Below are positions 2,975 through 19,039 of a DNA stretch of 43,594 nucleotides, piece by piece (the stretch's first letter is position 1; the number at the start of each line of letters is the position of its first letter). The notes under the pieces were generated by a model that saw nothing but the letters and a program-made list of their open reading frames with translations, was not told the origin of the DNA and did no database searches. Position numbers and translations under genes: made by a program. This DNA is from a virus (Duplodnaviria > Heunggongvirae > Uroviricota > Caudoviricetes): IMG/VR virus record IMGVR_UViG_2526164599_000004; one strand, 5' to 3'.

Positions 2975-3403
2975 TTATTCAATATCTATTCCTGTAATAT
3001 CTTTTATCTTTTTCCTTGCAAAGCCTTTTGCTAGTGATTTTGAAACACTTATTAGTGTACTAATTCCCTCATCCTTAAAGTTTGTTTTTATAGTTTGCCA
3101 GACCTCCTTTTGACGCAAGTCAGCAATAAAATCATGCCCTCTTGCTGTCAACCTCAGTGGTACTTCGATCCAACTATATCCAACACCTTCCCCTAACTCG
3201 TTGGACATTATATGACCGAACCCAGGTTTTCCATCAACCCTGACTATTAATTCGTAGTCGCATAATAATCGCATATGGAAAATAAAATTTTGGTCATATC
3301 TATTAAAGCCATTATCCTCTAGTTCACTAAGCATCGTGTCAGGGCCATGAGTTTTTTCGAATGCGATAAGTAGATCTTTTAGATATTGCTGGTCTAATTT
3401 CAT
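2975..3403 (-). CDS. Hypothetical protein, AT-rich accessory gene (142 aa)
   Basis: Clean 142-aa ORF in the variable region after xis where lambda carries ea8.5; clearly AT-rich relative to flanking phage genes; no function recognised. Confidence 0.6.
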   Translation of the reverse strand: MKLDQQYLKDLLIAFEKTHGPDTMLSELEDNGFNRYDQNFIFHMRLLCDYELIVRVDGKPGFGHIMSNELGEGVGYSWIEVPLRLTARGHDFIADLRQKEVWQTIKTNFKDEGISTLISVSKSLAKGFARKKIKDITGIDIE

Positions 3404-3430
3404 TGCCGCCTCCGTGACATGTCACAGAGA

Positions 3431-3769
3431 TTTATATCATTAATTTTGTTTCGTGCCAGCCTTTGGTCACCCAGCATTGTGAGTCACCATTACACGGGCA
3501 TGAATTAACAGGAACTCTCTCGCCGCACTTACCGCAACGTTTTCTGCTGATCGATTTTATACGCCAGCGCACACGTGCATCATCCTGGCGGCTCAGTAAC
3601 GCGATGTACTCACCAAACTCGTAAGGCGCATGCCTGAAGCGGCGCGTGGCTCAGTTACGATCCAGCATTTCAATTTCCTGAGCATCAAGTACAAGCTCCA
3701 GCTTACGCATACCGGATGATGCTTGCTTGGCTCTCTGATCGACTTTGCGCTCTGCTGATGATTTAGCCA
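3431..3769 (-). pseudogene. Small ORF (39 codons) followed in-frame, after one TGA, by 73 more codons with a Cys-rich zinc-finger-like tail
   Basis: Hand translation: MAKSSAERKVDQRAKQASSGMRKLELVLDAQEIEMLDRN, TGA at 3650-3652, then in frame ...RKRCGKCGERVPVNSCPCNGDSQCW... to TAA at 3431-3433; the downstream part has no start codon of its own. Confidence 0.3.
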
Positions 3770-3782
3770 TTCTGCTTTTCCT

Positions 3783-3836
3783 GCATTAGGAGAAAGACAA
3801 TCATGGCGGCGCGGATACTTCCGGTATCTTTTTACT
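3783..3836 (-). repeat. Remnant of a NinX-like gene 3' end (about 50 bp homologous to 19631-19688)
   Basis: Reverse complement reads ...ATCCGCGCCGCCATGATTGTCTTTCTCCTAATGCAGGA..., nearly identical to the 3' end of the gene at 19348-19695; only about 22 codons of frame remain. Confidence 0.6.
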
Positions 3837-3964
3837 CGATATTACCCTTCAATGGCACATACAAGAAGAGAGCCATCAACAGGAGTGAGTGAGGAATCGA
3901 CAACCAGCAACGCTTAATTATCTATAGTGTCGTATTTGCTTCATAAAATATGGCGAATAACACA

Positions 3965-3998
3965 AAGCCCGCAGCAGCTCATTGTGCGGGCTTTTCTT
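3965..3998. terminator. Bidirectional intrinsic terminator hairpin
   Basis: AAGCCCGCA...TGCGGGCTT stem followed by TTTTCTT on plus and TTTGTGTT on minus; sits about 70 bp downstream of the 204-aa minus-strand gene. Confidence 0.5.
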
Positions 3999-4063
3999 AT
4001 ACATACTTCCTAGAGATAATTCTATGGAGGCATTAAATTAATACTGTCATTGGTAATATCATA

Positions 4064-4678
4064 TTATCTAAAAGTCTTTCCACTTTTAACGTCTAGGTAT
4101 ATTCTGTTCGACAACGTCATTCCTCCGCAATATGTGAAATAGATGTTTTTCCCCTTATTGCTTGATGCCATCCACCCTCCGATTTCCTTAAAGTCGCTTT
4201 CCGTGCAGACCCCTTCGTTTATTAACTTCCTAGCTGCCGAAGAAAACTCTTTTTTGTATATACGGTAGTCATCAGATCCTTTGATTAAAGTATCATCTCC
4301 GCTCGCATTTTCAGCAGGATCTGATGGCCTTTCACTGCTAAGATCACTAAGTTTAACCCATTCTGAAAACTTGCCATTGACGATTCCGTTTTTTCTTGTG
4401 CAGGATTTATTACCTTCTTTAATATATTCGCTTTCCCCTCCCACACATGAGGCTGAATATGGCTCAGTTATACGAACCCATTCACCTTTTTTTTCTAGAA
4501 AATCTACGCCTTCCCTGAAAAATAGTTTCCCAGCCACTCCGCATTTACTTGAAGGGCAGGTATGTCTTTCCGTTCGATCAACAACAACCCAAAGTCTTGA
4601 TTCATTTTTTGCCATTGCCGATGGTATTTGAGATGAGACAATTAACGTAAGCCCTAAAATTAGTATTGATTTTTTCAT
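4064..4678 (-). CDS. Secreted cysteine-rich protein of unknown function (204 aa)
   Basis: N-terminal signal peptide (MKKSILILGLTLIVSSQIPSAMA|K), several Cys, AT-rich flanks with own terminator; not a lambda gene I recognise. Confidence 0.6.
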   Translation of the reverse strand: MKKSILILGLTLIVSSQIPSAMAKNESRLWVVVDRTERHTCPSSKCGVAGKLFFREGVDFLEKKGEWVRITEPYSASCVGGESEYIKEGNKSCTRKNGIVNGKFSEWVKLSDLSSERPSDPAENASGDDTLIKGSDDYRIYKKEFSSAARKLINEGVCTESDFKEIGGWMASSNKGKNIYFTYCGGMTLSNRIYLDVKSGKTFR

Positions 4679-4814
4679 TGTAATTTCCTTTTACTTTTTA
4701 CAAAGCGTTTAATCATGGCTGATTATCTTTAAGCGTAGTAACAGCCTTGTGCGAAACATGTTACCAAATCGCCATTTCAGTGTATCCGCAGTTAGGCTGC
4801 CACTTCAAGGATTC

Positions 4815-5228
4815 CTAATTACATGGTACGTAAGCGTAAAATCCCGTTGGTTGTCGGGTAATAACTCTGATCAAATCTCCCTTGTCTTTTGCTCTTACGT
4901 ATGCAGCTCTTGTGTATTCAACCCAGGCCTCCAGTTCAGCAATACGCTTACTTCCATCCGAGATAACACCTTCTACTCACGCTGCTCGTTGAGTTTTGAT
5001 TTTTGCTGTCTCCAGCTCAACACGCAGTTTCCTCACCGTTAGCGCAATATCCTCGTTCTCCTGGTCGCGGCGTTTGATGTACTGCTGGTTTCTTTCCCGT
5101 TCATCCAGCAGTGTCAGCACAATCGATGGTGTTACCAGCTCATGGAAAAGGTCCGCGTCAAATCCCCAGTTGTCATGCATTGCCTGCTCTGCCGCTTCAC
5201 GCAGTGCCTGAGAGTGAATTACGCTCAC
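4815..5228 (-). pseudogene. ea22: ea22-like gene interrupted by an in-frame TGA (83-aa N-terminal ORF 4977-5228 plus 53 in-frame codons)
   Basis: N-terminus MS.I.SQALREAAEQAMHD.WGFDADLFHELVTPSIVL... matches lambda Ea22 as recalled; TGA at 4977-4979, then in-frame EGVISDGSKRIAELE... continuing to TAG at 4815-4817. Confidence 0.5.
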
Positions 5229-5446
5229 TTCGAACCTCTCTGTTTACTGATAAGTTCCAGATCCTCCTGGCAACTTGCACAAGTCCGACAACCCTGAACG
5301 GCCAGGCGTCTTCGTTCATCTATCGGATCGCCACACTCACAACAATGAGTGGCAGATATAGCCTGGTGGTTCAGGCGGCGCATTTTTATTGCTGTGTTGC
5401 GCTGTAATTCTTCAATTTCTGATGCTGAATCAATGATGTCTGCCAT
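5225..5446 (-). CDS. TraR/DksA-family C4 zinc-finger protein
   Basis: 73 aa with CxxC...CxxC motif (CCECGDPIDERRRLAVQGCRTCASC); stop overlaps the ea22-like start. Confidence 0.6.
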   Translation of the reverse strand: MADIIDSASEIEELQRNTAIKMRRLNHQAISATHCCECGDPIDERRRLAVQGCRTCASCQEDLELISKQRGSK

Positions 5447-5544
5447 CTTTCATTAATCCCTGAATTGTTGGTTAATACGCTTGAGGGTGAATGCGAATAA
5501 TAAAAAAGGAGCCTGTAGCTCCCTGATGATTTTGCTTTTCATGT

Positions 5545-8045: not shown

Positions 8046-10012
<1,967 letters not shown>

Positions 10013-17536: not shown

Positions 17537-17783
17537 ATGAAAAAACTAACCTTTGAAATTCGATCTCCAGCACATCAGCAAAACGCTATTCACGCAGTAC
17601 AGCAAATTCTTCCAGACCCAACCAAACCAATCGTAGTAACCATTCAGGAACGCAACCGCAGCTTAGACCAAAACCGAAAGCTTTGGGCTTGCCTTGGTGA
17701 CGTTTCGCGTCAGGTTGAATGGCATGGTCGCTGGCTGGATGCAGAAAGCTGGAAGTGTGTGTTTACCGCAGCATTAAAGCAGC
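17537..17783 (+). pseudogene. ninB: ninB 5' fragment (first about 82 codons) truncated by IS629
   Basis: MKKLTFEIRSPAHQQNAIHAVQQILPDP...FTAALKQ matches the lambda NinB N-terminus; the frame runs into the IS inverted repeat at 17784. Confidence 0.85.
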
Positions 17784-17825
17784 TGAACCGCCCCGGGTTT
17801 CCTGGAGAGTGTTTTATCTGTGAAC

Positions 17826-18716
17826 TCAGGCTGCCAGATCATCGTTTCCGATGGAAGCATAATAAGCTTTTTCTGCTTCTGCCGGTGGGATATGGCCCAG
17901 CCTTTCCAGCAATCGTCGATTGTTATACCAGTCCACCCACGTGAGTGTGGCCAGCTCCACTTCTGTCCGGTTTTTCCAGCTCTTACGGTGTATTACCTCC
18001 GCTTTGTAAAGGCCATTGATGCTCTCCGCCATCGCGTTGTCATACGAGTCACCAGTACTTCCTGTTGATGCCAGTAATCCGGCTTCCTTAAGCCGCTGTG
18101 TGTAGGCCAGCGATACATACTGAGAACCTTTATCACTGTGATGGACTGTGCCGGACGGTCGACGGGCCCATAACGCCTGCTCCAGAGCATCCAGCACGAA
18201 TGTCGTTTCCATAGACGATGAGACCCGCCACCCCACGATGTATCCGGCAAACACATCAATGATGAACGCCACATAGACGACCCCCTGCCATGTGCTGACG
18301 TAAGTAAAATCAGCCACCCACAACTGGTCAGGACGTTCTGCCACAAACTGACGGTTTACGCGGTCGCCTGCGGCAACGGCTTTCCGGCTGACGGTAGTGC
18401 GGACCTTTTTACCCCGGAGAACACCGGCAAGTCCCATAACCGCCATGAGGCGCGCCACTGTACATCTGGCTACCCTGATTCCTTCCCGTAACAACTGACG
18501 CCAGACTTTACGCACACCGTATACCTGATGATTCCCATCGTATACGCGCAGTATCTCTTTCTTCAGCCAGTCATCGCGCTGCGCACGGGCACTGCGTTTA
18601 TCAGGATGATGTCGCTGTTGCTGACAGTGGTAATACGTTGACGGGGCAATATGTAGTTCACTGCATACCGGTCCGACCCCGTACAGCTTACGCAGCTTAT
18701 CCAGCAGTGGCATCAC
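17826..18716 (-). CDS. IS629 transposase OrfB
   Basis: 296 aa, integrase catalytic core; recalled as IS629/IS1203 OrfB. Confidence 0.85.
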
Positions 18717-19039
18717 TTTTTCCAGAGGCGGTCGAACTCCGCCTTCGCAAAATAAGCGGAAGCCTGGCGAAGGATATCGTTACTGCGGCGCAGTTCACGA
18801 TTTTCACGTTCCAGCTCTTTCAGACGCTGACGTTCAGCGGTGGTGAGCCCGCCATCACCGCCTCCGGTATCCCGCTCATGCTGGCGTACCCAGACACGCA
18901 GAGTCTCCGGTGTACAGTCAATCTTTGGGGCAATGGAACAAATTGCCGCCCACTGTGAGTCATATTCGCCCTGACTTTCCAGAACCATACGAATCGCCCT
19001 CTGACGGACTTCGGGGGAAAAACGAGTATTTTTAGTCAT
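18713..19039 (-). CDS. IS629 OrfA (HTH)
   Basis: 108 aa [26 protein letters not shown]...; lies upstream of and overlapping orfB, the usual IS3-family arrangement. Confidence 0.85.

What the first reader, a model, noticed from the sequence alone, without database searches (positions are those of the whole stretch)
3431..5228. Two ORFs each interrupted by a single in-frame TGA
The ea22-like gene (TGA at 4977-4979) and the small gene at 3431-3769 (TGA at 3650-3652) both continue in frame for 53 and 73 codons after the stop, with no internal start. For ea22 the segment after the stop still resembles the lambda Ea22 central region. These are most simply nonsense-mutation pseudogenes, though sequencing error or stop read-through cannot be excluded from sequence alone.
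Basis: partly seen in the sequence, partly recalled or inferred. Interest (0 to 1): 0.35.

Follow-up and report, generated by a model that had tools for sequence, protein, structure and literature searches.

The report
Two broken genes in a prophage
Both in-frame TGA stops are real, inherited lesions in two accessory genes of a lambda-like prophage of E. coli; they are ordinary pseudogenes that the public annotation already flags, not sequencing errors or recoding signals.

Summary
The window is a lambda-like prophage at attB-lambda (next to ybhC) of an E. coli ATCC 8739-type strain. Both TGAs exist on the minus strand. It is a homologue of phage epsilon15 gp49 / phiV10 p55 (PHROG 536), normally 112 codons. 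Its TGA replaces TGT, the codon of an invariant Cys40. The allele recurs in at least 28 complete genomes and on 804 contigs, so it is not a sequencing error. Codons after the stop evolve neutrally (8 non-synonymous to 2 synonymous changes, several at invariant residues), and no SECIS-like hairpin follows. This is a plain nonsense pseudogene. The ea22-like TGA (4977-4979) is not a point mutation. Compared with lambda ea22 and with rare intact alleles, the window has one extra A (A4 to A5, 5000-5004) and a 4-base deletion (TTAC, between 4974 and 4973). The net change is -3. The TGA is lambda's out-of-frame cGTGAg, exposed within the shifted segment. A sister lineage lacks these indels but carries two TAG stops instead, so the gene was disabled independently. 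RefSeq/PGAP already annotates 'internal stop' and 'frameshifted'. Interest is low.

The parts
3432..3770 (-). epsilon15 gp49 / phiV10 p55-like gene (PHROG 536), 112 codons plus stop, interrupted at codon 40. A pseudogene.
   Evidence: Translation. Full-length PHROG 536 hit, 6.7e-49. Intact 339-nt homologues in epsilon15, phiV10, TL-2011b, a Klebsiella phage and E. coli prophages. PGAP note 'internal stop' on the identical sequence.
3651..3653 (-). In-frame TGA that replaces TGT (Cys40)
   Evidence: DNA alignments. Cys40 is invariant in 31 and in 62 aligned homologues.
3654..3770 (-). Remaining 39-codon ORF (N-terminal fragment MAKSS...MLDRN)
   Evidence: The exact product was called on 804 contigs.
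3432..3650 (-). 72 untranslated former codons plus TAA. They held the Cys-rich C-terminal half (C79, C82, C91, C93, C99) and are now drifting.
   Evidence: Within the TGA clade there are 8 non-synonymous and 2 synonymous changes, including R66H, G80D, G80R and C99Y at invariant or near-invariant sites. Omega is about 1.1, against 0.23 in intact alleles.
4977..5228 (-). ea22-like ORF as it now reads: GTG start, 83 codons, TGA at 4977-4979
   Evidence: Pfam Ead_Ea22 hit, 9.3e-20. 84% identical to lambda Ea22 over residues 1-101, read across the stop.
5000..5004 (-). A5 run with one A more than lambda and the intact alleles (A4). This is the +1 frameshift.
   Evidence: Alignments. Motif scan of all fetched loci.
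4973..4974 (-). Junction of a 4-base deletion (TTAC of lambda GAG TAT TAC GAA). It restores the starting frame and also creates TAG (4973-4975) in the lambda frame.
   Evidence: The allele P0036 (84 aa...SKLNEQRE) reads in the lambda frame and stops where the deletion would create TAG (its DNA was not fetched).
4930..4976 (-). Post-stop segment still homologous to the end of the lambda Ea22 coiled-coil (VEGVISDGSKRIAELE)
   Evidence: Megablast homology to lambda ends at window 4930. Protein alignment. The coiled-coil/CTD boundary at about residue 102 is taken from PMC10834534.
4818..4929 (-). Short non-lambda C-terminal module (WVEYTRAAYVRAKDKGDLIRVITRQPTGFYAYVPCN) plus TAG
   Evidence: The same tail ends rare intact Ea22-like proteins of 141, 161 and 183 aa. 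Its core matches an internal part of a 208-aa plasmid protein and PHROGs 21749 and 20174.

Best explanation
Both interrupted frames are inherited inactivating lesions in non-essential accessory genes of a lambda-like prophage integrated at attB-lambda.

(1) Small gene. This is a homologue of epsilon15 gp49. A single T-to-A change turned the codon of an invariant cysteine (TGT, Cys40) into TGA. Translation stops after 39 residues. The product lacks the second predicted helix and the whole Cys-rich C-terminal half. The downstream codons have since drifted neutrally.

(2) ea22-like gene. This was a mosaic: a lambda-type N-terminus and coiled-coil joined to a short non-lambda tail. It suffered a 4-base deletion and a 1-base insertion in an A-run. 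Together they scramble 9 codons, expose an out-of-frame TGA, and put the rest back in the starting frame by arithmetic (+1 - 4 = -3). The product is an 83-residue N-terminal fragment. Nothing downstream of either stop is expected to be made in meaningful amounts.

Shown: the lesions, their ancestral states, their population spread, and the relaxed constraint after the small-gene stop.

Inferred: that neither fragment has a function, and the order of the two ea22 indels.
For: Small gene:
- TGT changed to TGA against 3 to 7 intact alleles, including the syntenic relative MB06102 and phage Chlobot.
- The family is 112 aa in most of the 120 listed clusters (298 found), and Cys40 is invariant.
- Intact alleles have pN/pS 0.23 in both halves.
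- The TGA clade shows 8 non-synonymous to 2 synonymous changes downstream, hitting R66, G80 (twice) and C99. Omega is about 1.1, and P = 0.03 under the family's level of constraint.
- There is no hairpin beyond chance after the TGA (z +0.77) and no Rfam hit.
- PGAP annotates 'internal stop'.

ea22:
- The A5 versus A4 run and the missing TTAC are seen against lambda and against an intact allele with the same tail.
- The lambda frame is closed by TAG at the deletion junction.
- A sister lineage (pOHT76-1_1 and others) lacks the indels but has GAG-to-TAG and TGG-to-TAG 22-24 codons further on. Its 100- and 103-aa products are common. The gene was therefore disabled independently.
- PGAP annotates 'frameshifted; incomplete'.

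Context: the prophage carries IS21- and IS3-family insertions, and relatives carry further IS1/IS3 insertions and deletions.
Against: - The disrupted alleles are far commoner than the intact ones (804 and 940 contigs, against 1 to 9 for intact mosaic ea22). This could reflect selection for the truncated forms rather than drift or hitch-hiking in successful clones.
- Phage Chlobot, deposited as a complete phage genome, carries the same ea22 lesion. The 83-aa form is therefore at least compatible with an apparently viable phage.
- The 43-kb circular record pOHT76-1_1 carries the small-gene TGA, so that allele is not confined to obviously dead prophages.
- The substitution tally rests on only 10 changes.
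- No expression data are available.
Confidence: 0.9

Rival explanations
1. The small-gene TGA is recoded, either as selenocysteine (a Sec/Cys pair with the TGT homologues) or by programmed read-through, so that a full-length 112-aa protein is still made.
For: The TGA sits exactly on an invariant Cys codon, which is the classical signature used to find selenoproteins. The allele is widespread and split into at least three sub-lineages. E. coli has the Sec machinery (general knowledge).
Against: - No stable hairpin follows the TGA: MFE -16.6 kcal/mol against -18.8 for shuffles, z +0.77. The small local stem is equally present in TGT alleles.
- No GGUC-type loop is visible in the 60 nt after the stop (read from the sequence).
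- There is no Rfam hit.
- Downstream codons are not under constraint, and invariant residues R66, G80 and C99 are replaced within the clade.
- TGT to TGA is one of only nine single-base routes to TGA, so hitting a Cys codon is not improbable.
- The stop context is TGA-G, which is not the leakiest (own knowledge).
- The TGA is confined to one clade of one species and is absent from all isolated phages.
Confidence: 0.02
2. The stops are sequencing or assembly errors in this one record.
For: The ea22 lesion includes a homopolymer-length change (A4 to A5), a classic error type. One 887-bp metagenome contig reads TTA in place of the TGA.
Against: Identical sequence occurs in 28 complete genomes from many laboratories and platforms. 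All 11 fetched loci that carry the window's ea22 allele have both the A5 run and the deletion. The products were called on 804 and 940 contigs. Several independent ATCC 8739 assemblies agree.
Confidence: 0.01
3. The truncations are selected, not neutral. Either a CTD-less Ea22 fragment (83 to 103 aa: N-terminal segment plus coiled-coil) is a working or dominant-negative variant, or loss of the full-length protein benefits the lysogen. The 39-aa peptide might likewise act on its own.
For: There are three independent lesions in the same mosaic ea22 (the -4/+1 indels, GAG to TAG, TGG to TAG). Truncated forms outnumber intact ones by about 100 to 1 in public data. Phage Chlobot carries the lesion. 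The N-terminal and coiled-coil part still scores as Ead_Ea22. The literature says the lambda CTD alone is inactive and that oligomerisation may reside in the N-terminal/coiled-coil part (PMC10834534).
Against: - Abundance may only reflect clonal spread of a resident prophage at one att site.
- The 83-aa form also loses a quarter of the coiled-coil and ends in 7 scrambled residues.
- Within the small gene the N-terminal 39 codons also show only non-synonymous changes in the TGA clade (A2T, S5A, A10V, E37D). This gives no sign of constraint on the peptide.
- No functional data exist for any truncated form.
Confidence: 0.1

Closest known systems
Phage lambda Ea22 (ead/Ea22-like family, Pfam PF13935), exo-xis region
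   Same: Same position between the TraR/DksA-like orf73 homologue and xis. Same GTG start. 84% identical over residues 1-101, read across the stop. N-terminal segment and coiled-coil are conserved.
   Different: Interrupted after 83 codons by a +1/-4 indel pair. The lambda C-terminal domain (residues about 102-182) is absent and replaced by a 36-residue unrelated tail.
Salmonella phage epsilon15 gp49 / Escherichia phage phiV10 p55 (PHROG 536, labelled 'transcriptional regulator')
   Same: Same length (339 nt), collinear, 71-86% identical, with the same conserved Cys pattern.
   Different: In Uetakevirus phages it is the intact last gene of the early-left operon, next to the terminase. Here it lies in the b/exo-xis region of a lambdoid prophage, preceded by a UmuD-like remnant, and carries TGA at Cys40.
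Bacterial selenoprotein genes (for example E. coli fdhF): UGA paired with Cys in homologues, plus a SECIS hairpin
   Same: TGA aligned with an invariant Cys codon of homologues.
   Different: No SECIS-like structure and no constraint after the stop.
Ordinary prophage pseudogenes as flagged by NCBI PGAP ('internal stop', 'frameshifted; incomplete')
   Same: The identical sequences in RefSeq genomes carry exactly these notes.
   Different: Nothing material. This report adds the ancestral states, the indel mechanism and the population picture.

Membership tests
Ead/Ea22-like family (PF13935) | N-terminal segment plus central coiled-coil matching the Ead_Ea22 profile | tested here: met
   Pfam hit 9.3e-20, 72 bits against a cut-off of 27, residues 3-76. 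84% identity to lambda Ea22 residues 1-101.
Ead/Ea22-like family (PF13935) | Uninterrupted ORF running into a C-terminal domain | tested here: not met
   TGA after codon 83. The +1/-4 indels are seen against lambda and against the intact allele P0175. PGAP: frameshifted, missing C-terminus.
epsilon15 gp49 family (PHROG 536) | Full-length similarity to the 112-115 aa profile | tested here: met
   With Cys restored: 6.7e-49, residues 1-111 on profile positions 2-114 of 115.
epsilon15 gp49 family (PHROG 536) | Intact 112-codon ORF with the invariant Cys40 | tested here: not met
   TGA at codon 40. Cys40 is invariant in 62 homologues.
Bacterial selenoprotein gene | In-frame UGA aligned with Cys in homologues | tested here: met
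   TGT in all intact alleles.
Bacterial selenoprotein gene | SECIS hairpin immediately 3' of the UGA | tested here: not met
   Fold of 67 nt gives z +0.77, and 156 of 200 shuffles fold at least as well. No Rfam match.
Bacterial selenoprotein gene | Purifying selection on codons after the UGA | tested here: not met
   8 non-synonymous to 2 synonymous changes, omega about 1.1, with invariant residues replaced.
Programmed stop-codon read-through | Stop conserved at the same site across divergent homologues, with a constrained extension | tested here: not met
   The stop is confined to one E. coli prophage clade. All phage homologues and most clusters have Cys. The extension is unconstrained.
Programmed ribosomal frameshift (ea22) | A slippery site whose alternative frame stays open into the downstream domain | tested here: not met
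   Both other frames are closed. The lambda frame hits TAG at 4973-4975, and the third frame has stops shortly after (three-frame translation).

The most novel reading that the evidence does not exclude
The repeated, independent truncation of the same mosaic ea22 gene (the -4/+1 indels in one lineage, two TAGs in another), together with the roughly 100-fold excess of truncated over intact alleles, reflects selection in lysogens. The selection would be against the full-length protein, or for a CTD-less coiled-coil fragment that still modulates the lysis-lysogeny decision. A far less likely reading is that the TGA on the invariant Cys40 of the gp49-like gene is decoded as selenocysteine or tryptophan at a useful level.
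Probability: 0.08. Interest if true: 0.35.

Novelty: already known. Interest (0 to 1): 0.08.

Why it matters
It matters little beyond correct annotation. The case shows that an ORF continuing in frame after a stop can come from a compensating indel pair as well as from a point nonsense mutation. It also shows that a TGA on a conserved Cys codon is not in itself evidence for selenocysteine. The independent lesions in the mosaic ea22 gene add a small data point on how the poorly understood exo-xis region decays, or is trimmed, in resident prophages.

Tried and rejected
- Selenocysteine or read-through. I folded the 67-68 nt after each TGA and found no structure beyond shuffles. An Rfam scan of 3300-5400 at E up to 10 gave only weak, irrelevant hits at a terminator near 3960-4050.
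- Function of the gp49-like protein. There was no Pfam family. NCBIfam gave only a sub-threshold hit to the LexA-regulated protein family PRK11675 (E 0.028). The AlphaFold2 model was poor (pLDDT 64.5). Foldseek against the PDB and a profile search of PDB sequences found nothing. The ribbon-helix-helix plus Cys-cluster idea therefore remains a guess.
- Possibility that epsilon15 and phiV10 also carry a split gene, suggested by '(x2)' in the tblastn table. This was rejected: the second feature is only the 8-base overlap with the upstream gene, and the ORFs are intact.
- Programmed frameshifting at the ea22 A-run. This was rejected because both alternative frames are closed.
- My first reading of the ea22 tail as merely a truncated foreign domain was softened. 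The same tail ends several intact proteins with different N-termini.
- The promoter/terminator scan of 3300-5500 showed nothing above shuffles.

Full report
WHERE WE ARE. The window starts in ybhC and runs into a lambda-like prophage on the minus strand. The gene order is int (1419-2489), xis, a DUF2513 gene (2975-3403), the small gene, a 204-aa secreted-protein gene (4064-4678), the ea22-like gene, a TraR/DksA-like gene, orf61/63/60a homologues, then exo, bet and gam. The region is 100% identical to E. coli ATCC 8739 and FORC_081.

THE OBSERVATION. Both in-frame TGAs are present. The ea22-like frame starts with GTG at 5228, as in lambda. It reads 83 codons, then TGA at 4977-4979, then 52 more sense codons to TAG at 4818-4820. 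The small gene starts with ATG at 3770. It reads 39 codons, then TGA at 3651-3653, then 72 sense codons to TAA at 3432-3434. An in-frame GTG at 3572 does open a 46-codon ORF, so 'no internal start' is not strictly true for the small gene. By composition alone, open stretches of these lengths have p of about 0.09 and 0.04. The real support is homology across the stops.

THE SMALL GENE.
- With the stop read as Cys, the protein matches PHROG 536 end to end (6.7e-49).
- It is collinear with gp49 of Salmonella phage epsilon15, p55 of phiV10, and equivalents in TL-2011b and a Klebsiella phage. All of these are intact 339-nt genes.
- A protein search found 298 clusters across Escherichia, Salmonella, Citrobacter, Klebsiella and others. 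Most of the 120 listed are 112 aa long.
- In alignments of 32 and 62 members, Asn39-Cys40 is invariant, as are C79, C82, C91 and C93.
- DNA alignments show TGT at codon 40 in every intact allele. This includes the syntenic, closely related prophage of strain MB06102 and phage Chlobot. The lesion is therefore a single T-to-A change.

SPREAD OF THE TGA ALLELE.
- The identical 81-mer around the TGA is in 28 complete genomes from humans, poultry, cattle, pigs, a goose, an opossum and old NCTC strains.
- Every further variant I sampled in the 95-99% identity band also carries TGA and is flagged 'internal stop' by PGAP: LR-28, 13C1065T, 1409, VTB97420v and SZQ1.
- The exact 39-aa product was called on 804 contigs.
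- All ten sampled places sit at the same attachment site, next to int and ybhC. They differ in their IS1/IS3 insertions and deletions.
- No isolated phage in the phage collection has the TGA allele.

IS THE SMALL-GENE TGA DECODED? A TGA on an invariant Cys codon is the textbook selenoprotein signature, so I tested it.
- The 67 nt from the stop fold no better than shuffles (z +0.77). The small local stem is also present in TGT alleles.
- Rfam finds nothing there.
- Intact alleles show pN/pS of about 0.23 in both halves of the gene.
- Within the TGA clade, the changes after the stop are R47H, A48S, Y50C, R66H, G80D, G80R, V88A and C99Y, against two synonymous changes.
- That gives omega of about 1.1. 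The probability of at least 8 non-synonymous changes out of 10 is 0.03 under the family's constraint and 0.64 under neutrality.
- Several of these changes destroy invariant residues. The part after the stop is therefore not being maintained.

Function of the intact protein remains unknown. There was no Pfam family, only a sub-threshold NCBIfam hit, a poor AlphaFold model (pLDDT 64.5), and no PDB match by profile or fold.

THE ea22-LIKE GENE. Against lambda ea22, the window is about 93% identical from 5240 down to 4930, with two differences in length.
- The run GC-AAAA-TC of lambda is GC-AAAAA-TC here (window 5000-5004).
- The TTAC of lambda's GAG TAT TAC GAA is missing (junction between 4974 and 4973).
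- Between the two indels the frame is shifted. Lambda's ...K S K L N E Q R E Y Y E... becomes ...K I K T Q R A A stop V E....
- The TGA is lambda's C-GTG-AG read out of frame. It is not a substituted codon.
- Because +1 - 4 = -3, the sequence after the deletion is back in the starting frame.
- The lambda frame is closed too: the deletion creates TAG at 4973-4975. A rare allele, P0036 (84 aa...SKLNEQRE, 3 contigs), reads in the lambda frame and stops where the deletion would create TAG. I did not fetch its DNA, so I infer that it carries the deletion without the extra A. The third frame is also closed.
- No frameshifting or slippage route therefore gives a long product.

THE ea22 TAIL.
- Homology to lambda stops at about residue 101. 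According to the NMR study of Ea22 this is the coiled-coil/C-terminal-domain boundary (PMC10834534).
- The remaining 36 residues (WVEYTRAAYV...YVPCN) are unrelated to the lambda CTD.
- Their core matches an internal part of a 208-aa plasmid protein and of proteins of roughly 108-kb Escherichia phage records such as Cyrano.

OTHER ea22 ALLELES.
Each is represented by 1 to 9 sequences.
- The DNA of P0175 has the A4 run and TTAC, confirming the ancestral state.
- A sister lineage (pOHT76-1_1 and others) also has the A4 run and TTAC. It carries GAG-to-TAG and TGG-to-TAG at the coiled-coil/tail junction, plus several non-synonymous changes in the tail.
- Its 100- and 103-aa products are common: P0214 has 166 member sequences and P0268 is on 211 contigs.
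- The window's 83-aa product is on 940 contigs, and the same lesion is in phage Chlobot and strain MB06102.
- One 887-bp metagenome contig has the window allele with TTA in place of TGA. As a single observation it may be an error.

INTERPRETATION. Both genes are broken, the breaks are old enough to have spread and diversified, and RefSeq already labels them 'internal stop' and 'frameshifted; incomplete'. The small gene is a textbook nonsense pseudogene. The ea22 case is a compensated double indel, not a nonsense substitution. The same gene was knocked out differently in a sister lineage, which is the usual mark of a gene no longer needed. The alternative is that truncation is favoured, and I cannot distinguish the two. 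I give it about 0.1, because truncated forms vastly outnumber intact ones and an apparently viable phage carries the lesion. The prophage itself is IS-ridden, with an IS21-family element at 8046-10012 and two identical IS3-family copies 5295 bp apart. This fits a resident, decaying element.

VERDICT. Sequencing error is excluded, and recoding is not supported. The finding is ordinary and already annotated, so interest is low.

Noticed in passing
window 8046-10012 (+): An IS21-family element (IstA-like 390-aa transposase plus IstB 265-aa ATPase) is inserted in the early-left region, just beyond the gam-side genes of the prophage.
   Followed up: partly
window 17783-19039 and 23078-24334 (-): Two copies of an IS3-family element (108-aa and 296-aa ORFs), identical over the 300 nt compared and 5295 bp apart. 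They flank a segment containing a porin gene (21059-22141, Porin_1, 3e-153). This may be a composite unit or a duplication.
   Followed up: partly
window 4064-4678 (-) and terminator about 3965-3998: A 204-aa protein with a signal/lipoprotein-like N-terminus and a weak SH3_3 hit (PHROG 8310). It lies in an AT-rich block with its own hairpin terminator, between the two pseudogenes, and looks like a moron. In an ATCC 8739 derivative adapted to AgNO3, an IS1 sits between it and the ea22 remnant (L001 1473-2170).
   Followed up: no
window about 3845-3910 (-); L007 45-290: A remnant of a UmuD-like / S24 peptidase gene lies just upstream of the small gene. Relatives (LR-28, 13C1065T) keep a longer 246-nt remnant preceded by a LexA-box-like TACTGT-N8-ACAG. 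In a Klebsiella phage the umuD-like gene lies just downstream of the gp49 homologue instead.
   Followed up: partly
L026/L029 (NZ_CP174001.1, pOHT76-1_1): A 43,337-bp circular 'plasmid' record is a lambdoid phage genome carrying the small-gene TGA. A partial diguanylate cyclase gene lies next to int. It could be an excised prophage or an assembly artefact.
   Followed up: partly
L005 3971-4309 (phage Chlobot PP925838.1): The intact 112-codon gp49-like ORF is not annotated in Chlobot. The record instead calls a 'UmuD-like protein' (3831-4148) and a 46-aa 'transcriptional regulator' (4169-4309) over it.
   Followed up: no
L030 56-469 (ENA metagenome contig, P0176): The window's ea22 allele with TGA changed to TTA, giving an open 137-codon frame that keeps the scrambled 9-residue stretch. 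It is a single short contig, so it may be either a revertant or an error.
   Followed up: partly
window 3432-3770 versus L002, L003, L010-L013: The gp49-like gene sits in two quite different contexts. In epsilon15-like phages and prophages it is the last gene before the small terminase subunit. In this lambdoid prophage family it lies between ea22 and xis. That indicates module transfer between phage types.
   Followed up: no
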